Positions 5,195-19,911 of a stretch of DNA of 20,000 nt are shown here, one piece after another. Within the stretch, counting starts at the first letter, position 1. Every line of letters begins with the position of its first letter. Source of the DNA: an uncultured virus (IMG/VR IMGVR_UViG_3300028833_000080). Its lineage: Duplodnaviria > Heunggongvirae > Uroviricota > Caudoviricetes. Below the pieces are notes generated by a model that saw only the letters and a program-made list of their open reading frames with translations, made no database searches and was not told the origin of the DNA. Made by a program: the position numbers and the translations under genes. The stretch lies in the IMG/VR virus record IMGVR_UViG_3300028833_000080, one strand, 5' to 3'.

Positions 5195-6687
5195 TTAAGA
5201 AAAAAACATTAATTTACTAATATCTCTACTTTTTCTTTTCTTTCTCTTTTCTTCCTCTTGTTTAATATAATATAATCCATAAATAAAAGCTGAAAACTTA
5301 TCCTTTTTAATACTTCTTGTGCTTTGCTTAAGGATAATATTCATACCTTCATTACTTTCAACAAGATTAAGAATCTGTTCTCTTAAAATAGATGTTAATT
5401 GATATGGACGTAAATAATCATTTCTTTGGTCTGCATTAAAATTCTGTCCTTGTTTAGTACTCATAAGCTTAGTTTTAGCAGCCTGCTCATCTATTAAAAA
5501 TTTCACCTTTCCGCTTGCCATTTGTGTTTGAGCATAAGAATAAGCTTCTGTATTAATAGGAGCATTTGCTTTTATAAGATACATTGCATCTTCTTCTACC
5601 CCAATACCCTTGATTTTTTTATAAGGTGCAGTAGCCTCTTCTGATGTACCATCAGCGACACCAAAAGGAGGTAAATCTTCTCCGCTTTCTGGATCGACTT
5701 GTGCTTTAGTCATAAAATCAATAAGACCGACGCCTAAACCATTTGCATCAATAGCAAGCATTTTTGCATGATATTTATAGTATAGCTTTTTTAAATTAAT
5801 TGCTTGTATTTCAAAATCTTCTGCATCATAGGTATATATATTAACCATTGTTTTTAAATCAGCTCCTTGAGGTTGCGGGGTTGCCTTAAGAACAACAGCC
5901 TCTGTAGTACATCCCAATCTACCTACATCAACCCCTATTACATAGTAAGCTGATTTAGATGACCTTCCGCTGAATTCATATTCAGGTTGTAATAATACTC
6001 TATTTTTATCAAATTTTTCTGCTGAGAAAAAAGCACCTTCAACAGACCCCGTCCAAATTGAACGATATTCTCTATCAAATGATTCTTCATTAAATGTTCC
6101 TTGTAATCTAAGTTGATCAACAAAATCTTCAGATAACAATCCTTCAGTTACAGGGGTTTCATAAGTACCGCCCATAATCATAAAATTATCTGGATCAATA
6201 ATACTTTGAACAAGAGTCTCAATTAATTTATCATAAGCGAACGAATTTTTGAATCCCGCTGTAGTAATATATATTTGGCTCTTATTAACAACTTCCTCTA
6301 CATGACGAGTGCCATCGCTTAAATATCTATCTACGTTAGTAGTAGGAATTATAACTTCATTAAGAATATCTCCATCAATGAGAACACATTCCTCCATTAA
6401 ACCGCCAGTTCTACGCTGACCTCTAGAAGATTGTCTCGCTGCAAGGATATCAATAGAAGAGCCATTTTTAAATACATATTTAACATCATCTTTTGATTTC
6501 TTAGATACGCCTCTTGCCCAGTTAATTTCATTATTAAGTGCTGGAAGCAAAGTACAAATTTCCTCGATCTTTGCTATTGTAATACTAGCTGCTTGCTCCT
6601 TACCGCCTGTTGTAACAAATAAATGACTATTTGGATAAAGAATACATCTAAGCATAAGAGCCATCATACTTAAAAATGATTTACTAT
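5195..6687 (-). CDS. terL: Terminase large subunit, exon 2
   Basis: Frame extends upstream of the annotated ATG to ...SKSFLSMMAL. Contains Walker B-like GGLMEE, coupling motif ITTA, and RNase H-like nuclease motifs IGVDVG, AIDANG and KDKFSA. Confidence 0.9.
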
Positions 6688-7901
6688 CTTGATATTCTAT
6701 TAGATTCGCAAAATCTAATACGTTCTCTTATGAACTGCTATATGTTTCCATATAGAATAGACTATATCACACTCTAATTAAAGAGTCCTTCCATTTCGAT
6801 TTAAGGGATTCTCACCCACCGCATAAGCTTCGGTCCTACTCCTATTGCCTTTATTTATTTATCCTCGAAGGCTATTTCAGGATAGTCGTTGAAGTTTTAT
6901 TCTATATATTTAAAATGAAATCCACCATGACTTTTGTTTACTCCTCGGCATACCTTAGATATTGTACTACTATCTAAATTCAACTGTCGAGCTGCTTCAG
7001 CACATGAATCAAAATAAGCAATATGTTCATCAGTCAATGTTAATTGTTCTACTTTCTTACATGAAGAATTAGTTTTAGTATTATATAATGCAGCTTTAAC
7101 ATTTTCACTTAAAGTAATAAGTCTTAAATTTTCTAATCTATTATCAGTTTTATTTGCATTAATATGATCTATAACATAACCTTCAGGTATTTCATCAATT
7201 TGATGAAACAAACAATAAACCATTTTATGAACTACTATGTCTTTAGTGATTCCTTTATTGCTTAATCTAACTTTATAATAACCACAAGTTAAAGAGGGTT
7301 TTAATAATAATAAAGTTTCATCATTTCTAACCCTTCCTAAATTTGAAACAGAATAATTATATCCTTTAATAGATTTCCATTCTTCATTAGGTAAATCTTC
7401 TTTATAATATTCTTTTTTAGAAATAGGTTTAATTAATTTTTCTTGATGAGCATGGGTAGTATTTTCTGAATAACTTACCCATTCTAAATTAACTATATCA
7501 TTATTTAATTTGTCCCCATCTTTATGATTTACTACTGGTAGATTATTAGGGTTAGGAATGAAAGCTTCCGCCACCAATCTATGTGCATAAAACATTTTTT
7601 TAGTATTATTTTTTGATAATCTATAATATTTATATCCATGTTCTCCAATGGAACCTTTTAAAATTTTTCCTGTTAATGTATTTAATACATCTCCATTATC
7701 ATAAATAAGATAATTATCATAATCAGGTATCTGTTTTGTCATAGTGGATTCTCCTTTTTAATATATAAAATACTTACCTGCGGATTTCCTTGACGAAATA
7801 ATTTTTTCCTCAAGTATCTTCTAATATTATTTCATTTTAGGATTCCCGCAATTAAAAAGGTTTGTCCAAGTTTTTTATAAAACTTTTGGCGCAATTTATT
7901 C
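6688..7901 (-). mobile_element. Group I intron (subgroup IA-like), 1214 nt, with homing endonuclease gene in the P6 region
   Basis: The 5' exon ends in U (GCGU) and pairs with guide GCGC through a U.G wobble; the intron ends in G (6688). Core elements: P AATTGCGGGAA, Q AATCCGCAG, R TTCAACGACTA, S GATATAGTCT; P7 GACTA/TAGTC; P3 CCTTTT/GGAAGG; P9 CTATATG-GAAA-CATATAG. Splicing restores GCG TAT AGT AAA TCA (FPRAYSKSF). Confidence 0.93.
6897..7742 (-). CDS. Intron-encoded HNH homing endonuclease with two tandem NUMOD4-HNH units and a C-terminal NUMOD1/IENR1 domain (281 aa)
   Basis: HRLVAEAF..VNHKDGDKLNN..NLEW and HKMV..F..IDHINANKTDN..NLRL; EEWKSI..Y.VSNLGRVR (NUMOD4); FDSCAEAARQL...ISKVCRG (NUMOD1). 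Has its own SD AAGGAG. Confidence 0.92.
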   Translation of the reverse strand: MTKQIPDYDNYLIYDNGDVLNTLTGKILKGSIGEHGYKYYRLSKNNTKKMFYAHRLVAEAFIPNPNNLPVVNHKDGDKLNNDIVNLEWVSYSENTTHAHQEKLIKPISKKEYYKEDLPNEEWKSIKGYNYSVSNLGRVRNDETLLLLKPSLTCGYYKVRLSNKGITKDIVVHKMVYCLFHQIDEIPEGYVIDHINANKTDNRLENLRLITLSENVKAALYNTKTNSSCKKVEQLTLTDEHIAYFDSCAEAARQLNLDSSTISKVCRGVNKSHGGFHFKYIE

Positions 7902-8151
7902 ACGCTCGAGGGAAAGTTGCATAAACCACTTTATGTCGCATTACACATCTAAGAAAAATTCTTTGATAAAAATAGAAATTAAAAGTACTATCTGGCCCTT
8001 TCATAAAATCAACCAGGTAGTCAGGATACTCTCTATAAAAAGCTACAAGCTCTCTTAAATTATTTACTTGAGCTTTAAGTCTTTCTTCAGACATTCCTTG
8101 TTTAATTTCTTGGCGGGAACTAGATAAATCTAATAAATTTTGTAAACTCAT
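7902..8151 (-). CDS. terL: Terminase large subunit, exon 1
   Basis: FYFYQRIFLR (adenine-binding YQ motif) ...VYATFPRA ends at the start of Walker A. Joined with exon 2 it gives 1743 nt, or 580 aa. Confidence 0.9.
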
Positions 8152-9407
8152 TCTTCTTCATCTACTCCTCTCTGTTGCATTTCCAAATCTTTCTCTACAT
8201 CTTGCTGTAAAGCCTCTTGGAATGCATTATAATCTTCATCTTCTAATTCAACATAATCAAGACCTTGTTCTTTTGCTTTTTGGCGGTCTCGTTTCATTTC
8301 ATCAGCACTCTGTTTATTCTTTAAATATTGTTCAATTTCTTCTGCCAATGATTTATCTTCATAAATTAAAGATTTATTATATGCTTTAAGGTCATCTATT
8401 ATTTTATCAATAATATCATAAGGTACTTTTATTTCATATTTGGGAATAGCTCCACCAACTTTTTCACAATAGTCAACCATCTGTCCTATTGAATCAACAA
8501 AATCCGCTTTATCTTCTTTATTCTGAGCCTCTGTAAATTTTGCAGATTTCATCATTGCATCGTATACTCTAGATAATTTTTGATATGATTCAACATCTCC
8601 GCAATCAATTGCTTGATTCATCTTAAGACTAGTTTTGCATATCATTTTAAGAGTATCTTCACGAGCTGCTCCTTGAATATCAAAGCTATTCATAAAATCA
8701 TTATATTTTTGCTCTAATATAACCCATTCATCAGCTCTATATAATCTACCCCATTTTGTTGCAAGATAAATTTTATCTTCATCTGTTAAATCTGCACCAA
8801 CATCTGGGAGATCAACCTGCTCAAAATTTCCATTAACTGGATAAACAGATCCGTTCACCTGGCTTCCCGCATTTAAAAAGTCTTCCGCACTTGTAACTTC
8901 CGCACTTGGTTTAGGAGCATTGATTTCCGCATATGTTAAATATTGAGCTTCAGTAATCTCTCCATTTTCATATGCTTGTTTCATATCTTCTATTTTTTGT
9001 TGAATTTGCTCTTCTGGTGCACCATACATTTTAGCTTGTTGTGCAGCCATTTCCGCTAACCGCTCTGTATCATTCCAAGTATAATCTTTCCATTGTTTTA
9101 ATTTCATTTTAGAAAGATATTTACCAAAAACAGACATTCCATTCATTTTATAAGGATCTTTTTGATAAGCGCGATCCCGCAATGTATTCCATTCCGCTTC
9201 TATATAAGGAACGTCATACTTTTCTAATAACCATAAAAAGGTAGAGGGGTCAAAGTTATTGACATGCATGGTTTCACAAGCTTTACACAAGTCTGAACGA
9301 GTGCCATCTTTTTGAAGATAAAATTTATCTTCAACCATTGTTTTATTACATTTAGAACAATAATGTTGAGCTTTTGGAGCTGCCATTTTAATTGGTCCTG
9401 TTGGCAT
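8148..9407 (-). CDS. Zn-finger protein upstream of terL (419 aa); candidate terminase small subunit
   Basis: N-terminal CSKC...KDG...CKAC; the rest is helical; overlaps the terL start (ATGA). Function is from position only. Confidence 0.5.
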   Translation of the reverse strand: MPTGPIKMAAPKAQHYCSKCNKTMVEDKFYLQKDGTRSDLCKACETMHVNNFDPSTFLWLLEKYDVPYIEAEWNTLRDRAYQKDPYKMNGMSVFGKYLSKMKLKQWKDYTWNDTERLAEMAAQQAKMYGAPEEQIQQKIEDMKQAYENGEITEAQYLTYAEINAPKPSAEVTSAEDFLNAGSQVNGSVYPVNGNFEQVDLPDVGADLTDEDKIYLATKWGRLYRADEWVILEQKYNDFMNSFDIQGAAREDTLKMICKTSLKMNQAIDCGDVESYQKLSRVYDAMMKSAKFTEAQNKEDKADFVDSIGQMVDYCEKVGGAIPKYEIKVPYDIIDKIIDDLKAYNKSLIYEDKSLAEEIEQYLKNKQSADEMKRDRQKAKEQGLDYVELEDEDYNAFQEALQQDVEKDLEMQQRGVDEEE

Positions 9408-9409
9408 AA

Positions 9410-10531
9410 TTAACTCCTTCCTTTAGGTAATATTTTTCCTGTTTTATTATTTCTACAGTCTTTACAGATAGAATACCATCCATCTTTACTTGTATTATTT
9501 TTAGAAAAAAAGTAATTATGACCTAACTTAATTTGACCACATCTTGAACATTTTTTCCAATAACCTTGTTCTTCTTGGGTATAATGCCATATCAACCATT
9601 CCTTTGCGGCGGTTTCAGCAATCATTTTAGGTATTTTGTTACGCCATAAAGCACTAATATATTCAACTGAATGAAGAATGTTATAGTCTTTATCCAATAA
9701 CCGCTGTATTTCACTATTGGATTTACCATCTATTTTATAAATAATAAGATCGTAATAAAGCGGGAAGGCTTCTTTAAAAGTCTTATCAACAAGAGAATCA
9801 AGATCTTCCATCATCCAATGAATATCGCTGGTAAATTTATCCCAACATTCTTCTTTTATACGAGAATAATTACATAATAAAAGAGAAACATGTTCTGGAG
9901 TGAATAGATTAATAAAACCAGTACTTTTTACATTACCTTCTGCATCTAAATAAATTTTCTCTGTTAAGTCTAGAGTAGAGAAAGTTTTTTTTGCATTTAA
10001 TAATTTAATTGGTTTACAATATGCGGCTTTAAGTACATATTGATCTTTCCTCATTTCAATTAATTGTTTTTGAAGAAGAAAAGCTTTATGACCGCGGGCG
10101 CCGGCCTTGCGAGCTTCGACCTTGTCAATTTCTTCTACGAGCTCCCGCATTCCAGGGATATTTTGAATATCTTCTTCTGTTATTCCAATTTTTGGAGAAA
10201 AGATAATATTTTTATCATTAGCTATCATACTATAAATACCATCTTCCCCATTCTCTAATCTTTCAACTAAACCTTCAAATGATAATTCTCTATCTCTTCT
10301 AGTTTTTAATCTATTATCTGTTGTTATTACATGAGAAAGTCTTTCTTTTTTATCCATTCCTGAAAAAATAATATAATTAGCAAGTTTTTCTAAATAATAG
10401 GGAGTTAATTTTTCTGAAGGAGTGTTAGCAATTATTTCTTTTGTTTTTTCAACGCATGCGGCGGGATCTGATAAAGAGAAATCCATCTTTATGTATCCAG
10501 ACCCTACTTTCTGTTGATCATTATTTTCCAT
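9410..10531 (-). CDS. Hypothetical protein with sigma region-4-like HTH and C-terminal Zn finger (373 aa)
   Basis: LIIYKIDGKSNSEIQRLL..HSVEYISALW resembles an HTH; C-terminal CSRC...KDG...CKDC. First gene of the leftward operon. Confidence 0.5.
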   Translation of the reverse strand: MENNDQQKVGSGYIKMDFSLSDPAACVEKTKEIIANTPSEKLTPYYLEKLANYIIFSGMDKKERLSHVITTDNRLKTRRDRELSFEGLVERLENGEDGIYSMIANDKNIIFSPKIGITEEDIQNIPGMRELVEEIDKVEARKAGARGHKAFLLQKQLIEMRKDQYVLKAAYCKPIKLLNAKKTFSTLDLTEKIYLDAEGNVKSTGFINLFTPEHVSLLLCNYSRIKEECWDKFTSDIHWMMEDLDSLVDKTFKEAFPLYYDLIIYKIDGKSNSEIQRLLDKDYNILHSVEYISALWRNKIPKMIAETAAKEWLIWHYTQEEQGYWKKCSRCGQIKLGHNYFFSKNNTSKDGWYSICKDCRNNKTGKILPKGRS

Positions 10532-10567
10532 TTGTTCTACGTCTCCTTAGTTTTATTTTACAATTAT

Positions 10568-10596
10568 ATTATACCATAAAATTTTTTCCTTGTCAA
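10568..10596 (-). promoter_or_regulatory. Consensus sigmaA promoter for the leftward packaging operon
   Basis: Minus strand TTGACA-17-TATAAT with TGG extended -10, about 35 nt upstream of the ATG at 10531. Confidence 0.85.
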
Positions 10597-10672
10597 GTTT
10601 GGTCAAGGATAATTTATTGAATTTTTTAAACGAAAACGAAAATTCTTATAGGTGTGCATATATTTTTTAAGC

Positions 10673-10799
10673 GGGAAGTGGGAAAGGGAGAAGGGGTATA
10701 TATTCCGTAAATTGAATTTGAAAAAATATTTGGAGGGGGTTTGGACGAGCAAAACCCAGTTTCAAAAATTTTTCTGGCAAAATCCCAAAATTATACCCC
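10673..10799. repeat. G-tract cluster and long imperfect palindrome at the strand switch
   Basis: GGG-AAGT-GGG-AAA-GGG-AGAA-GGGG (10673-10696). GGGGTATA (10693-10700) / TATACCCC (10792-10799) enclose TTTGAAA/TTTCAAA and GGGTTT/AAACCC, centred near 10746. Confidence 0.6.
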
Positions 10800-10841
10800 C
10801 GGTAGTTCCAGAAAAAGCTGGCGCTAAAAAATTTGGCTGCA

Positions 10842-10874
10842 CGGCCCATCCCCGGTCAAGATGGGCCGATTTTT
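10842..10874 (+). repeat. CG-rich hairpin, partial copy 0 of the composite element
   Basis: CGGCCCATC-9nt-GATGGGCCG followed by ATTTTT. Confidence 0.6.
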
Positions 10875-11001
10875 TAATAGAACAGAGGTTTAAGGAGTTT
10901 TTTACTTCGAATCAATAAGAAGTAAGAAAATTTAATTTTCACTTTTTTACTCTTTATCGACAAATATTAAAAAAATTTTTAAAATTTTTTTAAATAAGTA
11001 A

Positions 11002-11030
11002 TTGACTTTTTTCTACTATTATGCTATTAT
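11002..11030 (+). promoter_or_regulatory. SigmaA-type promoter (first rightward promoter)
   Basis: TTGACT-17-TATTAT with TG extension and an A/T-tract UP element, followed by AGAGAGAGAGGT. Confidence 0.75.
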
Positions 11031-11055
11031 AATTATAGAGAGAGAGGTAAGATAA

Positions 11056-11220
11056 ATGACAAAGTTTATTGTTAAAATTACAAATGATTTACTTGAAACT
11101 AGAATCTATACGACAGAAGCTACAACAAAAGAAAATGCTATTGCTAAGTGTTTAAGACTTTATAAATTTAATGGTTGTCCAGGAAAGGTTATGAAGACAG
11201 TTGTAATTGTTCTAAATTAA
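11056..11220 (+). CDS. Small hypothetical protein (54 aa, MTKFIVKITNDLLE...)
   Basis: Below the ORF-track cutoff. SD GAGAGGT with own promoter; open to TAA at 11220. Confidence 0.75.
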   Translation: MTKFIVKITNDLLETRIYTTEATTKENAIAKCLRLYKFNGCPGKVMKTVVIVLN

Positions 11221-11283
11221 AAGATTGACAATAACCTCAAGAAAATGATATAATAAAATCAAAGAGAAAGGTAGATAGAAATT

Positions 11284-11427
11284 ATGATTACAAAAATATT
11301 CGCTTATAAAGGTCAGGCTATGAATTATTATAAAAAGGTCTTAGCAAATAAAAATATTAATTTTTGTAATTGCGGTTTTGACTTCAAGCTTGGTAAGTAT
11401 ACAGTTTGCTACGACTATAAAAAATAA
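11284..11427 (+). CDS. Small basic hypothetical protein (47 aa, MITKIFAYKGQA...)
   Basis: Promoter TTGACA-18-TATAAT (11225-11254) and SD GAAAGGT. Confidence 0.7.
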   Translation: MITKIFAYKGQAMNYYKKVLANKNINFCNCGFDFKLGKYTVCYDYKK

Positions 11428-11452
11428 CTTTTTATCAAGAGGAGAATATAAA

Positions 11453-11545
11453 ATGACTATTTTGTGTTTTGAAACTTTTGTGTTTGTAATTATTATCTGG
11501 AAAGCTTGGGACAATCATAGAAAACCGCCTAAATACTGTGTATAA
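11453..11545 (+). CDS. Putative single-pass membrane peptide (30 aa, MTILCFETFVFVIIIWKAW...)
   Basis: SD GAGGAG; hydrophobic N-terminal half and basic tail. Confidence 0.5.
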   Translation: MTILCFETFVFVIIIWKAWDNHRKPPKYCV

Positions 11546-11561
11546 TTATACATTAATTGTG

Positions 11562-11696
11562 TGGCGCGCGCACTATCGCACTTGCGCCAAATTTTTAAAA
11601 CTTGGGCAGATTGCACAATTTGAGTATTGAATTTTTGTATATTTTGCTAGTTGTATTATTCCTAAAATAATGTTATTATAATTATAGGAAGAGAGG
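11562..11696 (+). repeat. Composite element copy 1 (short type, 16-bp dyad spacer)
   Basis: TGGCGCG/TGCGCCA hairpin, AATTTT, TGCACAA(11612)-16-TTGTATA, 9 bp, TTGTAT-17-TATTAT, AGAGAGGT. Confidence 0.8.
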
Positions 11697-11704
11697 TGCT
11701 AAAG

Positions 11705-12142
11705 ATGATGACAATTAAAGAAATCAATTTTGATATGGACGGAACAATCGCTAATCTCTATGGGGTTGAGAATTGGTTAGACTATTTAATGGCAAAGGAT
11801 ACAACACCTTACGCAATCGCAAGACCTTTGATTAACCTTTCAGCACTTGCAAGAGTTCTTAACAGACTTCAGAGAGAAGGTTATACAATCGGTGTTATCA
11901 GTTGGTTAGCAAAGAATTCTGATGATGATTATAACAAGAGAGTAGATGAAGTTAAGCGGGAATGGCTTGCTAGACATCTTCCTTCAGTTCAGTGGGATAA
12001 AATAAACATCGTGGCTTATGGAACACCTAAAAGCACTTGCGGTGAAGGGGTTTTATTCGATGACGAAGAACCAAATCGCAAAGAATGGAAAGGAATTGCA
12101 TACGATGTAGATAATATCTTTGAAGTTTTAAAGGCTCTGTAA
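11705..12142 (+). CDS. HAD-superfamily phosphatase, 5'(3')-deoxyribonucleotidase-like
   Basis: Motif I FDMDGT, motif II S (ISW), motif III K, motif IV LFDD. Start moved to ATG 11705 to fit the SD at 11690-11696. Confidence 0.8.
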   Translation: MMTIKEINFDMDGTIANLYGVENWLDYLMAKDTTPYAIARPLINLSALARVLNRLQREGYTIGVISWLAKNSDDDYNKRVDEVKREWLARHLPSVQWDKINIVAYGTPKSTCGEGVLFDDEEPNRKEWKGIAYDVDNIFEVLKAL

Positions 12143-12157
12143 ATCAGAGCCTTTTTT
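12130..12157 (+). terminator. Intrinsic terminator
   Basis: AAAGGCTCTG-TAAAT-CAGAGCCTTT plus T tract. Confidence 0.85.
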
Positions 12158-12167
12158 AATGCGGGCG

Positions 12168-12332
12168 CGGCGCCTGCGGTAGGATGGCGCCGAATTTTTA
12201 TTATACTACACTGTTCGAGGTTTTGTCAATAGTAAAATTAACCAAGGATAACCACTTTCCGCTCCTAAAATTTGTGCATAATTACCTATTGCATTCTAGA
12301 TGGGGGTATGCTATTATAATATCAGAGAGAGG
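12168..12332. repeat. Composite element copy 2 (long type, with leftward promoter)
   Basis: CGGCGCC/GGCGCCG hairpin; minus-strand TTGACA-18-TATAAT (12229..12200); TAACCAA-26-TTGTGCA (12239-12278); TTGCAT-17-TATTAT; AGAGAGAGG. Confidence 0.85.
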
Positions 12333-12729
12333 GAATGAGAAAAAATTCCTAGGTTTTTCGGAGATAGCCTCCTTCCTAACGCGTTCTGATTAGTCAGAAC
12401 TAGAAGTATAATGGATAGGGAAAAATCCATCGGCTCTTCTCTTTACTAAGGAATAAGGACCGAGCCTACAGGGCGGGCGGGGTGTAAGAGTCATTGAAAC
12501 CTCCTGCGAAACTAACTGAGATGCCCATGAAATTCGGTGGTGCCTTCCGCAAGGCAGTTTCTCCTAAAAGATATTGCGGGGTCAGTCAACAGCTCACCAA
12601 ACGAGCCAAAATACCAGTTGAGCTAGCGAGCAAGGTCGGGCAAGGTGCTTGAGTGCTGTGCCCATGAACAGCCAAGAAAGAGAGTAAACCAATATGACGA
12701 AACAGGCGTTTAAATAACGCCTGTTTTTT
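12324..12729 (+). ncRNA. Putative ~400-nt structured non-coding RNA, family not recognised
   Basis: Bounded by a promoter and a terminator, no credible ORF, GC-richer than flanks. Hairpins include GTTCTGA/TCAGAAC, ATGGAT/ATCCAT, GGCTC/GAGCC, TGCCTT/AAGGCA and two GGGCR/TGCCC stems. Confidence 0.7.
12700..12729 (+). terminator. Intrinsic terminator
   Basis: AAACAGGCGTT-TAAAT-AACGCCTGTTT plus T tract. Confidence 0.88.
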
Positions 12730-12899
12730 GGCGCCGCGAGTGCGTTCGCACGAGCGTCGAATTTTCATTATACCATAGCATTACACATTTTGTCAATAGC
12801 ATTTTTGCACAAAGATCTAGGTAAAAACATCCTGAAATTTGTGCAACATTTTACTTGACACTATAAAAATTTTTTAGTATTATAATTATAGAGAGAGGG
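12729..12899. repeat. Composite element copy 3 (long type)
   Basis: TGGCGC/GCGTCG hairpin with inner GTGCG-TT-CGCAC; minus TTGACA-18-TATAAT (12796..12767); TGCACAA-26-TTGTGCA (12806-12845); TTGACA-17-TATTAT; AGAGAGAGG. Confidence 0.88.
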
Positions 12900-12963
12900 A
12901 GATACGGTATTAGCCTTCTACAGACCAAAGGCATCTCCTAAACATCAATCGGAGGTATTTATC

Positions 12964-13146
12964 ATGACACATAGACAGTTTATTAAAGCCAATTTTGAAG
13001 TTCTCGCTGAAACTGAAAACGCAATTCTTTTCATTGCTTATGGCGAGATGTGTTGTGAAATCAATGGACAGTCATTTGATTGCCATTCTGTTGATGAGTT
13101 CAATGAAATGGTTGAATTCTTTGGAGACGATACTTTCGAGGAGTAA
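12964..13146 (+). CDS. Small acidic hypothetical protein (60 aa)
   Basis: SD GGAGGT; ORF track. Confidence 0.8.
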   Translation: MTHRQFIKANFEVLAETENAILFIAYGEMCCEINGQSFDCHSVDEFNEMVEFFGDDTFEE

Positions 13147-13199
13147 AAAATTTAAAAAAGATATTGACATAATCCTAGGGTTATGATAATATAATTATA

Positions 13200-13350
13200 G
13201 AGATGAGGTAAGGCAACCCGAGAGAAAGGGAAAAGCGCATAGTTGCCAAGTAAGTCCAAACCGACAAAGACATCTCGCCGCATGGTCGCTCCGTTGTGCG
13301 GAATATAAATGTGAACCAAGTGGACAACCTTGCAAGTCCAACTAGGCGGA
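13200..13350 (+). ncRNA. Structured 5' leader or sRNA
   Basis: Follows promoter TTGACA-17-TAATAT (13164-13192). Stems GAGATG/CATCTC, GGCAAC/GTTGCC, CCGCAT/GTGCGG and TGGAC/GTCCA lie about 185 nt ahead of the next ATG. Confidence 0.5.
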
Positions 13351-13384
13351 GTGAATAGGTAATAACAAAAGAGAGGTAATTAAC

Positions 13385-13570
13385 ATGGTTGAAAAAATTT
13401 ATTACATTGAAAATTCTTATGATTTAAGTATGGCTCTTGGTGAAATTGAAGAGAAATTTCCTTGTTTTGTGGATAGAGAGTATATTGAAATGGATTGCTC
13501 CAAAGTCACCATTAAAGCAAGGCAGGAAGATATGGCAAGTATTGAAAATATCTTAGCACCTTGTATGTAA
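13385..13570 (+). CDS. Small acidic hypothetical protein (61 aa)
   Basis: SD AGAGAGGT; followed by terminator AGGCGGGAA/TTCCCGCCT. Confidence 0.8.
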   Translation: MVEKIYYIENSYDLSMALGEIEEKFPCFVDREYIEMDCSKVTIKARQEDMASIENILAPCM

Positions 13571-13571
13571 G

Positions 13572-13770
13572 AAAAAGGCGGGAACCACTTCCCGCCTCTC
13601 TTTTTGCCTCGGCGACGCGCGATGGGCCGGCGCGCGTCGAAATTTTATTATATCATCTCGCTGTAGATTTTGTCAATAGGCAAATGCAACAAAAAACTAG
13701 GTAAGGGGATCCCGCAAATTTGTGCAATTTTACTACTTGCAAACCGCTTTAAAATATGTTATATTATAAT
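13572..13770. repeat. Terminator plus composite element copy 4 (long type)
   Basis: CGACGCGCG-9-CGCGCGTCG (13613-13639); minus TTGACA-18-TATAAT (13676..13647); GCAACAA-27-TTGTGCA (13686-13726); -35 TTGCAA at 13737. Confidence 0.88.
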
Positions 13771-13922
13771 TACAGAAAGGAAAGACGTGGTGGATACCTT
13801 TCAAAGAGATAATTGGCAATTCTTATTGAAAGTAAGGTTTTGCAAAGCCAAGGTTGCAAGATTTGAAAAATCAATAACTACCCAATGGAAGCCACAGGAT
13901 TAAAACAAGAGAGGTAGATAAA

Positions 13923-14123
13923 ATGATTAAACTTAAAATTATGTGCGTACTTTGTGGAAATTTCCACTCTGTAATGGTTAAAAAAGAAGACTATGTTAAA
14001 TATTTAGAAGGCGAGCTTGTTCAAAAAGCGTTCCCTTATTTAAATGCAACTCAAAGAGAGCAGATTATTTCTGGACTTTGCCCGAAATGCCAAGAAGATA
14101 TGTTTGGAAGTGAGAAAGAATAA
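13923..14123 (+). CDS. Small Zn-ribbon protein (66 aa)
   Basis: CVLC ... CPKC; SD AGAGAGGT. Confidence 0.8.
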   Translation: MIKLKIMCVLCGNFHSVMVKKEDYVKYLEGELVQKAFPYLNATQREQIISGLCPKCQEDMFGSEKE

Positions 14124-14252
14124 ATGTATAGACTAGTTTTTCAAGATGGATACAAAAGTCATTGGACAGATAATTTCAATTTGATTTTGGAAGGTGCAAA
14201 CCTTTTTAATGCAAAAATTGAAAAAAGAGTTGACACACAAGAAAATTTATGA
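14124..14252 (+). CDS. Small hypothetical protein (42 aa, MYRLVFQDGYKSHW...)
   Basis: ATG directly after the previous TAA. The 3' end contains the next promoter's -35 box (TTGACA-17-TATAAT, 14230-14258). Confidence 0.6.
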   Translation: MYRLVFQDGYKSHWTDNFNLILEGANLFNAKIEKRVDTQENL

Positions 14253-14289
14253 TATAATAATTATAACAAAAGAAAGAGAGGTAGTTCAA

Positions 14290-14487
14290 ATGGTAAAACT
14301 CACTTATGACGTTATGGTTAATGGTAGAGCAATCGCTAACAATGTTCCTACTTATGCAGAAGCTGAGCGAATTAAGGGCGAAAGCGTTGGTGCTACTTTA
14401 GTAAGGCGGTATGTGCCTGTCGAAAATGAATATACCTTATGCCCAAGGACTCCTAAGAAAAATGCTATGAGAGTTCAGGCAAGATAA
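14290..14487 (+). CDS. Small hypothetical protein (65 aa, MVKLTYDV...)
   Basis: Start reassigned to ATG 14290 behind SD GAGAGGT and the promoter at 14230. Confidence 0.8.
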   Translation: MVKLTYDVMVNGRAIANNVPTYAEAERIKGESVGATLVRRYVPVENEYTLCPRTPKKNAMRVQAR

Positions 14488-14500
14488 ATAAAGAATCTAA

Positions 14501-14701
14501 AGGTGCGGAAGAAATTCCGCACCTCTCTTTTTGGCGCGCCGTGCGGGATCCGCCCTGGCGCGTTTTTTCGATATACCATCCCCTTGCAGATTTTTATACT
14601 AGCAAATTGCACAATTAGACTAGATACCGGCGCCCGCATTTTTGTGCAATTTGTCTATTGTTTTATTTATTTTCTTATGATATTATAATTACAAGAGAGG
14701 T
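14501..14701. repeat. Terminator plus composite element copy 5 (long type, leftward promoter decayed)
   Basis: Terminator AGGTGCGGAA/TTCCGCACCT; hairpin GGCGCGCC/GGCGCGTT; TGCACAA-27-TTGTGCA (14608-14648); TTGTTT-17-TATTAT; AGAGAGGT. Confidence 0.85.
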
Positions 14702-14709
14702 AATGAATT

Positions 14710-14880
14710 ATGATGAACATGAACGTAGAACAATGGGTAGGAAATTTTAAAGGTCATAGAACTGTAAAAATTATTTATGCTAATACCAATAAAGAAGCAA
14801 ATCTCTTTTGGTTGGGTTTCAGATATAATATAGTAGTTAAAGTTAAAGTAAGCGGCGATTGTGCTTATTTATGGGTATAA
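14710..14880 (+). CDS. Small hypothetical protein (56 aa, MMNMNVEQWVGNFKGH...)
   Basis: SD AGAGAGGT; open to TAA at 14880; not in the ORF track. Confidence 0.7.
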   Translation: MMNMNVEQWVGNFKGHRTVKIIYANTNKEANLFWLGFRYNIVVKVKVSGDCAYLWV

Positions 14881-14893
14881 GGAGAGGTATAAA

Positions 14894-15106
14894 ATGAAAT
14901 ATAAATTTGAATGGAATGACATCAGAGCAGTGGTTACTTTAATCAATGTAATCTTGATTATGAAGTATGGACTTACAGTTGCATGGGTTGGAATGGTAAT
15001 TGCGGGAATCGGTATTATAAAAGATATTGCAGTAGATAGAAAAATTAACGGTTTTGTTATGCATAGTGCTAATATTATGCTCAATTTATTCTTTTTAATA
15101 CAATAG
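14894..15106 (+). CDS. Small membrane protein (70 aa)
   Basis: SD GGAGAGGT before ATG 14894; two to three hydrophobic segments. Confidence 0.78.
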   Translation: MKYKFEWNDIRAVVTLINVILIMKYGLTVAWVGMVIAGIGIIKDIAVDRKINGFVMHSANIMLNLFFLIQ

Positions 15107-15125
15107 ATAAAGAATATAGCGGGAG

Positions 15126-15291
15126 GCCCCTAAAATAGGGGGCTTTTTTAATTGCGCGGCGCGCTTAGGGCTCGCCCTGCGCCGCATTTTTGCTAGTAGT
15201 CATATTTACCAAAATTTGCTATGAATTTTTATACATTTTGTCTATTGTAATTATTCCCATAATTTGATAATATAAATATAGAAAGAGAGGT
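15126..15291 (+). repeat. Terminator plus composite element copy 6 (short type)
   Basis: Terminator GCCCC/GGGGC plus T tract; hairpin GCGGCGCG/TGCGCCGC; TTACCAA-16-TTATACA (15206-15235); TTGTAA-17-TAATAT; AGAGAGGT. Confidence 0.8.
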
Positions 15292-15299
15292 GCTTTAAT

Positions 15300-15563
15300 A
15301 TGACATTAATGACAACTGATGAGATTTTAGAAAAAGCAAAAGAAAAACTTTTAAAAGAATATGAGGAAACTATTAAATATTCAATCCGTACTGAAATACA
15401 TGAAATAAAGCAAACTATTCCATTATCAGAGAAAGTTCAAGAAAGCATCACTAGAGGTTGGGCTATTGTAATGTTTGCGCAAGACCTTGGGGTAAAATAT
15501 AGTGACATAATAGATTGTTATATTGTATTTAAGGCGGCTATGGAAAAGTTATTGACAAATTAA
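15300..15563 (+). CDS. Hypothetical protein (87 aa)
   Basis: SD AGAGAGGT; 3' end overlaps promoter TTGACA-17-TATAAT (15552-15580). Confidence 0.8.
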   Translation: MTLMTTDEILEKAKEKLLKEYEETIKYSIRTEIHEIKQTIPLSEKVQESITRGWAIVMFAQDLGVKYSDIIDCYIVFKAAMEKLLTN

Positions 15564-15606
15564 AAATAATTTGTTATAATATTTTTAGAAAGAGAGGTTT
15601 TCTAAA

Positions 15607-15765
15607 ATGTATGATAGACGCAAAGATATGACTAAAAAGGCATGGAAAGAGCAACAGAAGAAAAACCGCATCTTAAATGGTTTTAACACAGGTACAAGGG
15701 ATATGAAGTCAGCAAAATATCCTAGCAGACAAGAGCAGAAAAGAGAGGTAAGAAATTATGAGTAA
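15607..15765 (+). CDS. Small basic hypothetical protein (52 aa, MYDRRKDMTKKAWK...)
   Basis: SD AGAGAGGT, own promoter, overlaps the next gene start. Confidence 0.72.
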   Translation: MYDRRKDMTKKAWKEQQKKNRILNGFNTGTRDMKSAKYPSRQEQKREVRNYE

Positions 15766-15973
15766 GAATGAAGAAAATGTATTAAGAGCAAATATTCTTG
15801 GCGGAATGAATTCTTATATTCTTGAAGTGATTGGGGATGATGATATTACAGACCGCTGGCTAATGTTTGGAATCCCCGATGGATGTGATGAAGAAGAATT
15901 AATGGAAATCGCAGAAGATGAAAGTGAATTCTTAAGAATTAGTAATTTATGGAATAATTTAATTAGAGAATAA
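15758..15973 (+). CDS. Small acidic hypothetical protein (71 aa)
   Basis: SD AGAGAGGT; ORF track. Confidence 0.8.
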   Translation: MSKNEENVLRANILGGMNSYILEVIGDDDITDRWLMFGIPDGCDEEELMEIAEDESEFLRISNLWNNLIRE

Positions 15974-15990
15974 AGGAGGATTTTAAAAAT

Positions 15991-16239
15991 ATGATTGTAG
16001 ATATTGAATATAGTATTGTAGGTAACTATAGACATCGTGTAGATTTAGATGATTATGCAGATGAAATTTTTGATACATATGGAATGACATGGGAAGAATT
16101 ATCTGATGATGAGCGAGATGAATTTATTAAAGATTTAGGATATCTTAAGTTTGGTGCAGCAGAATCAGAATGTGAATATACCTTAGGGAGTGTACAAGCT
16201 TGGGAAGAAGAAAATGGAACAGAACATTGGTTTAAATAG
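15991..16239 (+). CDS. Small acidic hypothetical protein (82 aa)
   Basis: SD AAGGAGG; ORF track. Confidence 0.8.
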   Translation: MIVDIEYSIVGNYRHRVDLDDYADEIFDTYGMTWEELSDDERDEFIKDLGYLKFGAAESECEYTLGSVQAWEEENGTEHWFK

Positions 16240-16266
16240 AGGATAAGAATAGAAGAGGTGTGAAAA

Positions 16267-16542
16267 ATGAAATATTATAAAATTACTTGTTCAAATGGAT
16301 TCTGCGGTTGCGATGAAGATTTTTATGTTCAAGCAGAAGAGAATGAAATTGATGACTTAGCCAATGATATTTTTCAAAATGATTATAGCTTCTATGAACC
16401 CGATGGTAGATTTATTTATGGAAAAAGTTGGGGTGATGATATAACAGATGATGAAGTAGAAGAGTATCAAGAAAACTGTGAATTCTACTATACAGAAATT
16501 TCTGAAGAAGAATATAATGAACATGAATCAGAGTGGGGATAA
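16267..16542 (+). CDS. Very acidic, aromatic-rich hypothetical protein (91 aa)
   Basis: SD GAGGTG; about 28 D/E versus 4 K/R. Confidence 0.8.
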   Translation: MKYYKITCSNGFCGCDEDFYVQAEENEIDDLANDIFQNDYSFYEPDGRFIYGKSWGDDITDDEVEEYQENCEFYYTEISEEEYNEHESEWG

Positions 16543-16697
16543 AATAACACCCACTCTTTTGCGGCGCGACCTTGGTCAAGCTGCGCCGCAATTTTTATAG
16601 ATAGATATATTTACCAAATTTTGAAACGAAATTTTGTGCATTTTGTATATTGCTTTTGTTCCTATAATGTAGTATTATAGTTACATGAAAGAGAGGT
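16530..16697 (+). repeat. Terminator plus composite element copy 7 (short type)
   Basis: Terminator AGAGTGGG/CCCACTCT; hairpin TTGCGGCGCG/TGCGCCGCAA; TTACCAA-16-TTGTGCA (16611-16640); TTGCTT-17-TATTAT; AGAGAGGT. Confidence 0.85.
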
Positions 16698-16705
16698 ACA
16701 AAAAA

Positions 16706-16996
16706 ATGACAAAAAAATGGGTTAAAACAGTAGAAAAGAATGGACGTACATTTAGACTTATTTTTGAGCGCGATTACTTAGATTGTCTTTGGTGTTATGG
16801 GTATGAAATATATAGACCCAAAAAGCATTTTCTTGATTTTTCTTATCAAAGCCAAATATTTTGTTTTTGGACAAGTAATGAAGATACTATAATAGAACAG
16901 GCTATTGAAGAAATCAATAATATTTTTATTGATGAAGAAACAGTAAAAAGAGCTGAAAAAGCACTTGACAAATTTGCTGATTATACTGTATCATAA
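16706..16996 (+). CDS. Hypothetical protein (96 aa, MTKKWVKTVE...)
   Basis: Start reassigned to ATG 16706 behind the SD. The 3' end contains TTGACA (16965) of the next promoter. Confidence 0.8.
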   Translation: MTKKWVKTVEKNGRTFRLIFERDYLDCLWCYGYEIYRPKKHFLDFSYQSQIFCFWTSNEDTIIEQAIEEINNIFIDEETVKRAEKALDKFADYTVS

Positions 16997-17025
16997 TTAT
17001 ATAAAAAGCGAGGAAGGAACAACAA

Positions 17026-17310
17026 ATGAAACTACTAATTGATATACCCGACATTACTTACAAAAGAACGCTTGAAATTGGAGCACTTCAAATATGCAAA
17101 GATGAAGATATTTACCGTTGGATAGCCAAGGGTACTCCCATTCCCGACAATATTACTAATGGTGAATTTATAACAATGTTTATACCACATGAAAGTATTA
17201 CTGTTTGCAAAGAAAAACAGTTTGTAATAGTTATTGGCAAAGACTATCTTTTTCAACATCATTATCCGTTGGATTGGTGGAACGCAAAGTACAAGGGGGC
17301 GAGTAAATGA
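17026..17310 (+). CDS. Hypothetical protein (94 aa)
   Basis: SD GAGGAAGGA; ORF track; coupled to the next gene by ATGA-type overlap. Confidence 0.78.
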   Translation: MKLLIDIPDITYKRTLEIGALQICKDEDIYRWIAKGTPIPDNITNGEFITMFIPHESITVCKEKQFVIVIGKDYLFQHHYPLDWWNAKYKGASK

Positions 17311-17582
17311 AAGTTGTAATTGAGTTACCTGAAAATTGGGAAGAATCTAAAAGTAAACTTAGAGCACTTGTAGATGCTTTTCAAGATGCTAAACCCTATG
17401 AAGATTTTGATTTTATCTTAGATAAAATAACAAAAGAAATAAAAGAACAGTATGGTGACTGTGACTTATGCGAGTATTATGAAGATTATGATTTTGAAGA
17501 AAATGATATTTCTTCTTATAATTACGTAGCAAGTATAACAGATATTTTAGATATTATTAATGCATATAAAGATGGTCGATAG
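17307..17582 (+). CDS. Acidic hypothetical protein (91 aa) with CDLC
   Basis: ORF track; followed by terminator ATGGTCGATAG/CTATCGACCAT (17572-17599). Confidence 0.78.
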   Translation: MKVVIELPENWEESKSKLRALVDAFQDAKPYEDFDFILDKITKEIKEQYGDCDLCEYYEDYDFEENDISSYNYVASITDILDIINAYKDGR

Positions 17583-17649
17583 GAAAATCTATCGACCATT
17601 TGTTCTTCCACCGGTTGAAAAATTCTAAAATTTTTGATATAATATAATT

Positions 17650-17910
17650 GTAATGAAAAAGAAATAAAAATTTTTCTCATTGTAAAATTTATTTAAGTGT
17701 TTTAAATAAATCTAATCTGATTTTATTTAAAAACTATCTAAAAATTCTTAATATTCTAGTTGAAATGATAGCCGGTATCTATCATTTCTGTCCGAGTTTC
17801 TAGACCAAGGACTCGTTGAAGTAGTTTAATAAGGATTTTTTAAATAGCTAGATTTAATAATTTTTCCCCATAATTGAGCGCGCCTTTTGCGAACGTAAAA
17901 GGCGCGAATT
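17650..17910 (+). ncRNA. Putative AT-rich structured ncRNA (~260 nt)
   Basis: Promoter TTGAAA-17-TATAAT (17615-17643), with no SD or ORF downstream. Stems ATTTATTTAA/TTAAATAAAT, GAAATGATAG/CTATCATTTC, CGAGT/ACTCG and AAATCTA/TAGATTT. Confidence 0.55.
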
Positions 17911-18019
17911 TCCATTATATCATACCTCAGCAGATCTTGTCAATAGGAATTTTGCACAAAAAATTTTTATTTTTAATCCTAAAATTTGACTTGACTTTTA
18001 TAAAAAATTATATTATAAT
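17879..18019. repeat. Composite element copy 8 (long type, right half-site truncated)
   Basis: CGCGCCTTTTGC/GTAAAAGGCGCG; minus TTGACA-18-TATAAT (17943..17914); TGCACAA(17953)-26-TTG; TTGACT-17-TATAAT (17991-18019). Confidence 0.82.
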
Positions 18020-18116
18020 AAATACATAAGATAAAGGAAACACGTAAACGCTTAGAGCGAGAGTCTTTACCTTGCCAAGGGCAGAGTGGTTAACAAATAA
18101 AAAATAAAAAAAGTTG

Positions 18117-18312
18117 TTGACATTTCCAAAATCTTATGATATAATCTTTATATAAGATAACAAGTGGTTAATCGTAATCGTGCGGGTAGTGGTGTGAACA
18201 GAAACCCAGTGCACGGGGTGCAGAAACAGAAACGTAGCGAGGCAGATATACGGAAAAAAGTTGCAAATTTTTTCAAAAACCGCTTGACATCTTATAAAAG
18301 ATATGATATAAT
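18117..18312 (+). promoter_or_regulatory. Two further tandem consensus promoters
   Basis: TTGACA-17-TATAAT with TG extension at 18117-18145 and 18284-18312, each followed by AAGATAA. Confidence 0.85.
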
Positions 18313-18368
18313 AAATATATCAAAGATAACAAATAACAATTTTATTCAAAGAAAGGTGGTATTACATT

Positions 18369-18719: not shown

Positions 18720-18788
18720 TCCCTCTTTTGCTCTAGGGGTAAGGGTAATGAAACTTGCCCCTAATGATTCTTGTACGAGGTAGAAAAA

Positions 18789-19118: not shown

Positions 19119-19130
19119 GGCGGTTTTTGT

Positions 19131-19202: not shown

Positions 19203-19217
19203 TTGAAAAGGATTTTT

Positions 19218-19390: not shown

Positions 19391-19396
19391 TGTATT

Positions 19397-19906: not shown

Positions 19907-19911
19907 ATAAC

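What the first reader, a model, noticed from the sequence alone, without database searches (positions are those of the whole stretch)
12324..12729. Stand-alone ~400-nt structured RNA carried as cassette cargo
Seen: a complete promoter-to-terminator unit with no credible ORF, higher GC than its flanks and dense pairing potential. The 5' AGAGAGAG can pair with CTCTTCTCT (12434), enclosing several hairpins. TGCCCATGAA occurs twice (12522 and 12659), each time closing a GGGCR-opened stem, which suggests a duplicated structural module. I see no tmRNA, RNase P, SRP or T-box signatures. Known: large ornate ncRNAs such as GOLLD and ROOL occur in Bacillota and their phages, but I cannot assign this one. 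Inference: possibly a novel large phage ncRNA (protein sponge, anti-defence decoy or ribozyme).
Basis: partly seen in the sequence, partly recalled or inferred. Interest (0 to 1): 0.8.

Follow-up and report, generated by a model that had tools for sequence, protein, structure and literature searches.

The report
Non-coding RNA cassette in ruminant-gut phage
A gene-free, promoter-to-terminator unit in the early region of a large uncultured ruminant-gut phage is a real non-coding RNA gene whose roughly 200-base core is kept in two related phages, but it is not the large ornate RNA first suspected and its job is still unknown.

Summary
The unit at 12324-12729 is real: an extended -10 promoter, no credible ORF, a perfect 11-bp terminator and a GC island (about 0.5 against 0.33). 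It matches no Rfam family. An RNA library holds an identical 371-nt contig.

The claimed "dense pairing" is not above chance. The folding z-score is -1.09 for the whole unit, -0.78 to +0.80 for body sub-windows and +1.26 for the core. The TGCCCATGAA duplication is real but not conserved.

Homologues appeared late. Three spurious "proteins" align to 12446-12646 across stops and changing frames. Two IMG/VR phages, L117 and L118, carry the same cassette. Their portal proteins are 66% identical to the window's.

Four blocks are nearly identical between the lineages: 12449-12483, 12504-12579 (two blocks joined by a hairpin) and 12617-12642. A hairpin and a region that differ in sequence and length separate them. 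The stretch 12331-12446 is a lineage-specific insertion.

The middle, 12504-12579, fits a Y-shaped fold. All 13 variable columns are either unpaired or keep their pair, and one pair changes on both sides. This rests on only two distinct sequences.

Verdict: a new, rare, accessory early phage ncRNA family carried in a PeSL-like cassette array. Its function is unknown; my best guess is a trans-acting binding platform. Interest is moderate.

The parts
12167..12288 (.). Upstream intergenic module: GC-rich hairpin, a leftward perfect-consensus promoter (12229 to 12200) and the AAATTTGTGCA box
   Evidence: The same module recurs in the window and, in many copies, in related phages.
12289..12317 (+). 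Promoter of the RNA unit: -35 TTGCAT, 17-nt spacer, extended -10 TGcTATTAT
   Evidence: Read. It aligns with the TTGACT / TGgTATACT promoters of L117 and L118. The scan did not list it.
12321..12330 (+). Conserved start of the transcript (ATCAGAGAGA); the presumed start site is near 12324
   Evidence: Alignment A3. The start site is inferred from promoter spacing and was not measured.
12331..12446 (+). Lineage-specific 116-nt insertion containing four small hairpins, bounded by the imperfect direct repeat GGAATGAG (12332) / GGAATAAG (12450)
   Evidence: Absent from L117 and L118. Folding z is -0.78 for 12324-12473. Only 3 differences in 156 nt in run X5.
12449..12483 (+). Conserved block 1
   Evidence: 33 of 35 positions are invariant in A1. 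It is also kept in P0006 and P0007. It was used as the pattern that found L117 and L118.
12484..12503 (+). Variable hairpin. It has a different sequence and is 15 nt longer in L117 and L118, yet forms a hairpin in both lineages
   Evidence: The differences between L117 and L118 in its stem are C-G to U-G and C.A to U-A (read).
12504..12579 (+). Conserved central domain. Predicted Y-shaped fold: closing helix P1 (12504-12509 with 12574-12579), a GAGA/UCUC helix and two hairpins (12525-12540 and 12541-12556)
   Evidence: RNAalifold. Pair counts: 46 of 46 cells paired against 41-57% when slid; P1 has 1 pair changed on both sides and 3 changed on one side. L118's own MFE contains the same fold.
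12580..12616 (+). Variable region 2, with unrelated sequence and 11 nt longer in L117 and L118
12617..12642 (+). Conserved block 4, a predicted small hairpin with its one variable base in the bulge
   Evidence: 92% identity over 26 nt.
12643..12699 (+). Lineage-specific 3' part: the second TGCCCATGAA (12659), the SD-like AAGAAAGAGAG (12674) and the ATG at 12695 of a 7-codon mini-ORF that runs into the terminator
   Evidence: The SD-plus-ATG resembles ordinary gene starts of relatives.
12700..12729 (+). Intrinsic terminator
   Evidence: z -2.50; a terminator-like partial Rfam hit.
12730..12888 (.). Downstream module: GC hairpin, leftward perfect promoter (12796 to 12767), the inverted repeat TTGCACAAA...TTTGTGCAA, and the promoter of the next cassette (12855-12883)

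Best explanation
This is a stand-alone gene for a non-coding RNA. It is one interchangeable promoter-to-terminator cassette in the early, many-promoter array of a ~136-kb uncultured phage of ruminant-gut Bacillota. The functional part is a core of about 200 nt (12449-12642). The core consists of sequence blocks that stay almost unchanged between phages whose portal proteins have diverged to 66% identity. A hairpin and a region that are free to change in sequence and length separate the blocks. The middle of the core (12504-12579) probably folds into a small Y-shaped domain. I propose that host RNA polymerase makes the RNA early in infection. It would then act in trans as a binding platform, with its conserved and largely exposed blocks read by sequence by a conserved host or phage factor, more likely a protein than an RNA. 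Shown: it is non-coding, its blocks are conserved, it has cassette architecture, and its sequence is present in an RNA library. Inferred: the start site, the strand, the fold, the trans action and the kind of partner.
For: Non-coding. There is no ORF in any frame or under any stop reassignment. 0 of 14 stop-free fragments hit Pfam, and 2 of 14 gave only weak PHROG hits (E 0.013 and 0.091). The 52-aa ORF has no relative except translations of the same locus. P0006 aligns to 12449-12646 through an in-frame stop. P0007 needs three different frames and has lost both ATGs. L118 has no credible ORF either.

Conserved cassette. L117 and L118 carry promoter, RNA and terminator between the same kind of modules. 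Identity is 77% over 12449-12574 and 92% over 12617-12642. Against this, the sigma-like protein is 51% identical and the portal 66%. The neighbouring genes are not shared.

Fold. 46 of 46 cells pair, against 41-57% when the partners are slid. The 13 variable columns of the domain split into 7 unpaired and 6 in pairs, and all 6 keep their pair. The variable hairpin is replaced by a different hairpin.

RNA. Metatranscriptome run X3 holds a 371-nt contig identical to 12389-12759. X3 and X4 hold 0.84 and 0.74 of the sampled words.
Against: Folding energies are no better than those of shuffles: window unit z -1.09, core +1.26, L118 RNA -1.19. Only two distinct DNA lineages were available for the fold. 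The structure was derived from those same sequences, and the shuffle control is uninformative (264 of 500). In the lineage known only from translations (P0003, P0006), two terminal pairs appear broken; this is inferred, because no DNA was seen. The family is sporadic: model R1 found it in 2 of 50 related records, both of which were training sequences. The RNA evidence is unstranded contigs from one study, and DNA in that library cannot be excluded. A perfect leftward promoter at 12796-12767 could produce an antisense RNA. No partner or target was found.
Confidence: 0.5

Rival explanations
1. It is a cis-acting RNA or DNA element rather than a trans-acting RNA. Candidates are a processive antitermination or leader element that lets polymerase read through the cassette terminators, or a transcript-primed replication origin.
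For: The RNA-library contig runs 30 nt past the terminator T-run, to 12759. A 7-codon mini-ORF with an SD-like site overlaps the 5' arm of the terminator. The array is full of terminators. A G-rich run lies at 12471-12482.
Against: A contig of DNA run X5 also ends at 12759, so that end is most likely an assembly break at the repeated module. The mini-ORF, its SD and the G-run are not conserved in L117 and L118. In L118 the RNA ends at a strong terminator that is followed by a fresh promoter.
Confidence: 0.15
2. It is non-functional cargo: a decayed gene, or a leader joined to a gene start. It would be retained and spread only because the flanking modules recombine, and the conserved blocks would reflect recent transfer rather than selection.
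For: The 3' end carries an ordinary SD plus ATG followed by only 7 codons. The cassette is absent from most relatives. Close variants in runs X5-X7 differ by about 2-8%, much like the flanks. There is no thermodynamic signal.
Against: Recent transfer would leave the whole cassette similar. Instead, near-identical blocks alternate with unrelated segments of different length. tblastx against 80 related loci and Pfam/PHROG searches find no parent gene. The promoter and a terminator are kept in both lineages.
Confidence: 0.12
3. The functional product is the minus-strand RNA made from the perfect leftward promoter at 12796-12767, and the plus-strand unit is incidental.
For: That promoter is TTGACA-18-TATAAT with a TG. 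It is stronger on paper than the plus-strand promoter. Its predicted start, near 12760, coincides with the end of the RNA-library contig. The contigs are unstranded.
Against: Such leftward promoters sit after cassettes of every kind, so they are a property of the module and not of this cargo. The plus-strand promoter is homologous in both lineages. P0006 and P0007 translate as a rightward promoter directly upstream and a T-run downstream (inferred by back-translation). The terminator is strong only in the plus direction.
Confidence: 0.08
4. It is a DNA-level site, such as a protein-binding array or a recombination or packaging signal, and transcription is irrelevant.
For: Conservation is by primary sequence with little folding signal.
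Against: There are no iterons or tandem repeats. The unit is always framed by a promoter and a terminator in one orientation. The changes in P1 keep base pairing.
Confidence: 0.06
5. It encodes a small protein, either the 41-52-aa frame at 12494/12527-12652 or another short frame.
For: A gene caller predicted a 41-aa protein here (P0001). Two changes in L117 and L118 would read as F to Y and R to H in that frame (my reading).
Against: That frame has no usable start in P0007, where both Met codons are Ile, and the frame shifts between lineages. The stop position is not kept. There is no strong SD. 4 proteins passed E <= 0.001 among 1.84 billion representatives: one is a translation of the same locus and three are repeat proteins.
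Confidence: 0.04

Closest known systems
PeSL (promoter-early stem-loop) cassettes in the hyperplastic regions of T4-type phages (Arbiol et al. 2010, PMC2839356, abstract read; PMC4122927, search listing only)
   Same: Strong sigma-70-like promoters joined to stem-loop terminators recur between small accessory units of an early region. The cargo differs between relatives, and the same cargo sits at a different place in a relative (2.0 kb from the sigma-like gene in the window, 5.0 kb in G448).
   Different: This is a different phage group: its portal relatives are large Bacillota phages. The modules are longer and add a GC hairpin, a leftward perfect promoter and an inverted-repeat box. The cargo is an RNA gene, not an ORF. 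Mini-circles and recombination were not shown here.
Highly transcribed, apparently non-coding regions of Listeria phage CKA15, a P100-like phage (PMC12282133, passages read)
   Same: A large lytic Bacillota phage in which promoter-driven loci without ribosome-binding sites or protein homologues yield RNA of unknown function.
   Different: No sequence relation was tested. The authors report no canonical terminators at those loci, whereas this unit has a strong one. Their Y RNA/Rsr idea finds no support here, because G447 and G448 have no TROVE protein.
   Same: A non-coding RNA of unknown function carried by phages of Bacillota.
   Different: No covariance-model match even at E <= 10. The conserved core is only about 200 nt, and there is no excess folding stability.
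Non-coding RNA cassettes in phage early arrays noted earlier in this scan (e1-5747409 and e1-209386; AI notes, leads only)
   Same: Promoter-to-terminator units without a gene inside swappable early arrays. Some are conserved in a related phage, and all have unknown functions.
   Different: Other phage groups and hosts are involved, and there is no look-alike sequence.

Membership tests
Any Rfam 15 family (GOLLD, ROOL, OLE, raiA, HEARO, 6S, tmRNA, RNase P, SRP, T-box, pRNA, Y RNA, group I/II introns) | A match to the family covariance model at or above its gathering score | tested here: not met
   Across the whole window at gathering threshold, only tRNA matched. At E <= 10 on 12100-12950, the only matches were two weak hits on the terminator. 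The L118 homologue gave three weak terminator hits. ARAGORN found no tmRNA.
PeSL-type mobile regulatory cassette array | A repeated composite of a strong sigma-70-like promoter and a stem-loop terminator between accessory units | tested here: met
   66 promoter-like sites against 37.6 expected, and 14 terminator-like sites against 5.0 expected, in 10500-20000. Repeat families D1-D5. The modules are conserved in relatives.
PeSL-type mobile regulatory cassette array | Belongs to T4-type myoviruses and matches the PeSL consensus | tested here: not met
   The portal's relatives are Enterococcus, Bacillus, Brevibacillus, Staphylococcus and Lactococcus phages of 120-170 kb, none named T4. The PeSL consensus itself was not compared.
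PeSL-type mobile regulatory cassette array | Cassette gain, loss or movement by recombination between the motifs | tested here: inconclusive
   The same RNA cassette has different neighbours and a different distance from the sigma-like gene in G448. It is absent from 48 of 50 related records. The one joint that skips the cassette (12215 to 12786, run X6) has only 24 letters on one side.
Y RNA with Ro/Rsr partner | A TROVE-domain protein in the same genome and a Y RNA model match | tested here: not met
   PF05731 matched 0 of 2 records (G448 is 100% complete), while the controls rang. There was no Rfam match. The window's own genome could not be searched.
Type III toxin-antitoxin RNA antitoxin | Tandem direct repeats of a short unit next to a toxin gene | tested here: not met
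   No tandem repeats in 12150-12900. Only two 10-nt direct-repeat pairs were found.
Small-protein gene | One reading frame with start and stop kept across homologues | tested here: not met
   frames shift, there is an in-frame stop, start codons are lost, and ends vary.
Structured ncRNA (generic) | Statistically supported covariation, or folding energy beyond shuffles | tested here: inconclusive
   z-scores run from -1.19 to +1.26. In the central domain 46 of 46 cells pair, with 1 double and 4 single changes, but from only 2 distinct sequences.

The most novel reading that the evidence does not exclude
The near-invariant blocks, which are better conserved than the phages' own portal and sigma-like proteins, are the recognition surface of an early host-takeover RNA. 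This RNA would titrate or mimic a conserved host factor, such as a defence sensor, a ribonuclease or a translation or transcription component. Large Bacillota phages would trade such RNA genes as ready-made promoter-terminator cassettes in the same way they trade small protein morons.
Probability: 0.3. Interest if true: 0.65.

Novelty: new member of a known kind. Interest (0 to 1): 0.42.

Why it matters
Early arrays of large lytic phages are usually read as lists of small unknown proteins. Here, one slot of such an array in a Bacillota phage holds an RNA gene with its own promoter and terminator. Its sequence blocks are kept between phages that have otherwise diverged strongly. That makes the RNA a concrete candidate for a host-directed function that works through RNA rather than protein. 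It also extends the PeSL-style 'mobile regulatory cassette' picture beyond T4-type phages. The practical value is limited for now, because the host is unknown, the family is rare and no partner has been identified.

Tried and rejected
1. DNA searches with the window RNA
- 'phages' blastn, distant mode: none (L118 query: none).
- 80 related loci: three 25-29-nt hits by blastn, none by nhmmer.
- 44 related records: 25 of 44 matched, all at <= 31 nt.
- Exact patterns in viral contigs gave 0, 0, 9 chance and 4 chance hits.
- One 20-mer gave 6 chance hits in metagenome contigs and 4 in genome contigs.
- A degenerate 39-letter pattern gave 0.
- 399 scored genomes of the class of G046 gave 5 short chance matches; 2 genomes were not scored.
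- P0006 in viral contigs: none.

2. Decayed-gene idea
- tblastx hits (E 0.26-3.3) all fell on one protein family, across a stop, and were driven by RW(I/F)FP(Y/F). I rejected them.

3. Repeat proteins
- P0002, P0004 and P0005 from the phmmer search are chance matches to an SPxRY repeat.

4. Antisense targets
- No extended complementarity within the window.

5. Anti-SD mimicry
- CCTCC occurs only twice on the plus strand of the 9.1-kb early region, both times in this RNA.
- One copy lies in the insertion, and the other is not kept in L117 and L118.
- Only CTCCT at 12561 is conserved, and it is paired in the model. I dropped this as a mechanism.

6. Read cover
- In RNA run X3 the flanks 11904-12311 and 12771-13127 have no cover, and the neighbouring gene has depth 2.3 against 13.8.
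- By the tool's own rules this cannot rank expression or show silence, so I did not use it.
- The contig ends at 12389 and 12759 are probably assembly breaks.

7. Surveys and scripts
- My scripted surveys of leader lengths and ORF-free gaps in relatives were too noisy to use: 7 modules caught, 178 gaps.

8. Earlier findings
- Nothing for this genome or this sequence.

Full report
SETTING. The window comes from a large uncultured phage. On the minus strand it carries a portal gene (3071-4669), a large terminase split by an HNH-bearing insertion (5195-6667, 6897-7742, 7900-8151) and a sigma-factor-like gene (9410-10531). From about 10.9 kb the plus strand holds an array of short units. Each unit has a strong promoter and a terminator. 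The scan found 66 promoter-like sites against 37.6 expected, and 14 terminator-like sites against 5.0 expected.

The portal's nearest named relatives are 120-170-kb phages of Enterococcus, Bacillus, Brevibacillus, Staphylococcus and Lactococcus, plus the gut phage phAss-1 at 38% identity. The gene caller's product for this locus sits on a 136,326-bp contig. Runs that hold the stretch are labelled sheep or bovine gut. The window's own assembly is not held.

THE OBSERVATION. The unit is there as described. Its promoter is of the extended -10 type: TTGCAT at 12289-12294 and TGcTATTAT at 12309-12317. The -35 is too weak for the consensus scan, but the promoter is homologous to the promoters of the related cassettes. 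The terminator has 11-nt perfect arms and a T-run ending at 12729.

All six frames are closed by mixed stops. The three mechanical ORFs are 52, 60 and 69 aa, and two of them start in or before a promoter. GC reaches about 0.5 against 0.33. Rfam gives nothing at gathering score. At E <= 10 it gives only two weak hits on the terminator. ARAGORN finds only the tRNA-Lys at 19130.

The structural claims fail a chance test. The z-score is -1.09 for the unit. The four body windows give -0.78, +0.52, +0.80 and +0.16. The terminator window gives -2.50. Six coding controls range from -1.14 to +1.71. TGCCCATGAA is indeed present twice; 0.04 copies are expected and 1 of 200 shuffles reached 2.

IS IT TRANSCRIBED? 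24 runs from 15 studies hold part of the stretch, and 4 hold at least half of its words. Two of those four, X3 and X4, are metatranscriptomes of one sample and hold 0.84 and 0.74.

I laid four runs on 11700-13200. RNA run X3 has a 371-nt contig identical to 12389-12759. These are unstranded contigs. DNA in the library cannot be excluded. The right end coincides with a contig end in DNA run X5, so it is probably an assembly break at the repeated module. DNA runs X5, X6 and X7 tile the region at roughly 92-98% identity with the same order of parts.

HOMOLOGUES. Direct DNA searches found nothing beyond short RBS-like or terminator-like matches. The first break came from testing the small-ORF rival.

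A full phmmer scan with the 52-aa frame returned P0003 at 79% identity over 28 residues. Its cluster mate is P0006, and a search with P0006 returned P0007. tblastn back onto the window shows these are translations of homologous non-coding DNA:
- P0006 aligns to 12449-12646 through an in-frame stop.
- P0007 aligns in three successive frames (12446-12532, 12525-12575, 12586-12642) and has Ile at both Met codons.
- The first 22 residues of P0006 and P0007 back-translate to a promoter of the array's type, and their ends back-translate to a T-run or the next promoter. This is my inference, because I did not see their DNA.

A degenerate pattern drawn from the first conserved block then found real DNA homologues in IMG/VR. 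These are L117 (G447, 101.6 kb) and L118 (G448, 165.5 kb, rated complete).

They belong to the same phage group. The sigma-like protein is 51% identical, the portal is 66% identical and the gene order is the same. The RNA lies 5.0 kb from the sigma-like gene, against 2.0 kb in the window. The neighbouring ORFs are unrelated to the window's.

In L118 the unit consists of a module, the promoter TTGACT...TGgTATACT, about 288 nt of RNA, a strong terminator and the next module. It has no credible ORF.

ANATOMY (alignments A1 and A3). The promoter and the first ~10 transcribed bases are homologous. The window then has a 116-nt insertion at about 12331-12446. The insertion is bounded by GGAATGAG and GGAATAAG, and it holds the four 5' hairpins and the CTCTTCTCT string.

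After the insertion come these parts:
- Block 1 (12449-12483).
- A variable hairpin, with a different sequence and 15 nt longer in L117 and L118.
- The central domain (12504-12579).
- A variable region (12580-12616).
- Block 4 (12617-12642).
- Unrelated 3' parts, each ending in its own terminator.

The first TGCCCATGAA reads TACCCATTAA in L117 and L118, and the second has no counterpart. The window's SD-like site and 7-codon mini-ORF at the terminator are also lineage-specific.

FOLD. RNAalifold and L118's own MFE agree on a Y-shaped central domain. It has a closing helix P1, a short GAGA/UCUC helix and two hairpins.

On alignment A2 all 46 cells pair, against 41-57% when the partners are slid by 1-3 columns. 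P1 carries one pair changed on both sides (C-G to U-A) and three changed on one side. Of the 13 variable columns in the domain, 7 are unpaired and 6 lie in pairs, and all 6 keep their pair.

This evidence is suggestive only. There are two distinct sequences, the structure was derived from them, and the shuffle control cannot discriminate (264 of 500). By back-translation, the P0003/P0006 lineage keeps 5 of 6 P1 pairs and loses one loop-closing pair.

Folding energies remain unremarkable: +1.26 for the window core and -1.19 for the L118 RNA. Model R1, built on this domain, found only G447 and G448 among 50 related records, plus a 31-nt, 16.9-bit partial match in G043.

WHAT IT MOST LIKELY IS. 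It is an accessory early non-coding RNA gene. Near-identical blocks alternate with segments of unrelated sequence and different length, in phages whose proteins have diverged to 51-66% identity. That pattern argues for selection on the blocks rather than recent transfer of the whole unit.

The blocks are conserved as primary sequence with little stable structure outside the small central domain. I therefore favour recognition by a partner in trans. The partner is unknown. I found no complementarity within the window, no extended match in 399 scored genomes of the class of G046 and no Ro/Rsr protein in G447 or G448.

The rivals are set out with odds in their own section. They are a cis element, junk cargo, an antisense product of the perfect leftward promoter, a DNA site and a small protein.

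COMPARISON. The array works like the PeSL cassettes of T4-type phages (PMC2839356, abstract read), but in another phage group and with richer modules. The nearest biological parallel I found in print is the set of highly transcribed, apparently non-coding loci of Listeria phage CKA15 (PMC12282133, passages read).

I ran four literature searches, and none concerned this RNA. I therefore claim only that it is absent from Rfam 15 and from the collections searched. I do not claim it is absent from print. Earlier notes of this scan describe similar RNA cassettes in other phages. I treated them as leads.

VERDICT. The feature is real and more modest than proposed. It is a new, rare ncRNA family of large ruminant-gut phages with a conserved core of about 200 nt and an unknown function.

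Noticed in passing
window 12167-12230, 12730-12796, 13610-13676, 17879-17943: Each long intergenic module carries a GC-rich hairpin directly after the cassette terminator. It also carries a LEFTWARD promoter that matches the consensus perfectly (TTGACA-18-TATAAT) and points back into the cassette just ended. The arrangement is conserved in related phages (L019, L032, L118). It could produce short antisense RNAs or act as a polymerase roadblock.
   Followed up: partly
window 12808-12850: The inverted repeat TTGCACAAA ... TTTGTGCAA lies between the leftward and rightward promoters of the module. The right half (AAATTTGTGCA) recurs at 12269 and in relatives. It looks like an operator for an early-transcription regulator.
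   Followed up: no
window 12331-12446: A 116-nt insertion in the RNA is bounded by the imperfect direct repeat GGAATGAG / GGAATAAG. It holds four small hairpins and an internal TATAAT at 12407. It is absent from L117 and L118 but well kept (3 differences in 156 nt) in run X5.
   Followed up: partly
window 17583-18368: A second stretch of 786 nt without a credible ORF, containing four promoter-like sites (17615, 17991, 18117, 18284) and a module hairpin. The segment 17650-17799 folds better than shuffles (z -2.71), while the others do not. It may hold further short non-coding units.
   Followed up: partly
window 5195-8151 (minus strand): The large terminase is in two pieces (7900-8151 and 5195-6667) separated by an HNH endonuclease ORF (6897-7742). 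This looks like an intron or a homing-element insertion. A second homing-endonuclease-like ORF lies at 4762-5124.
   Followed up: no
window 19130-19203: A tRNA-Lys (anticodon UUU) sits inside the early array (67.5 bits).
   Followed up: no
window 12695-12718: A 7-codon mini-ORF (MTKQAFK) with an SD-like site 9 nt upstream runs into the 5' arm and loop of the terminator. It is specific to this lineage.
   Followed up: partly
window 1-10531: The distant relative phAss-1 reads TAG as Gln in 41 ORFs (PMC10607447, passages read). In this window the portal, terminase pieces and sigma-like gene are open under the standard code, so there is no sign of recoding here.
   Followed up: partly
window 12589-12768 (minus strand): The spurious 60-aa minus-strand ORF is on record (P0008), with a longest contig of 35,933 bp. 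This is not the 136,326-bp contig that carries P0001, so the same sequence has been assembled at least twice.
   Followed up: no
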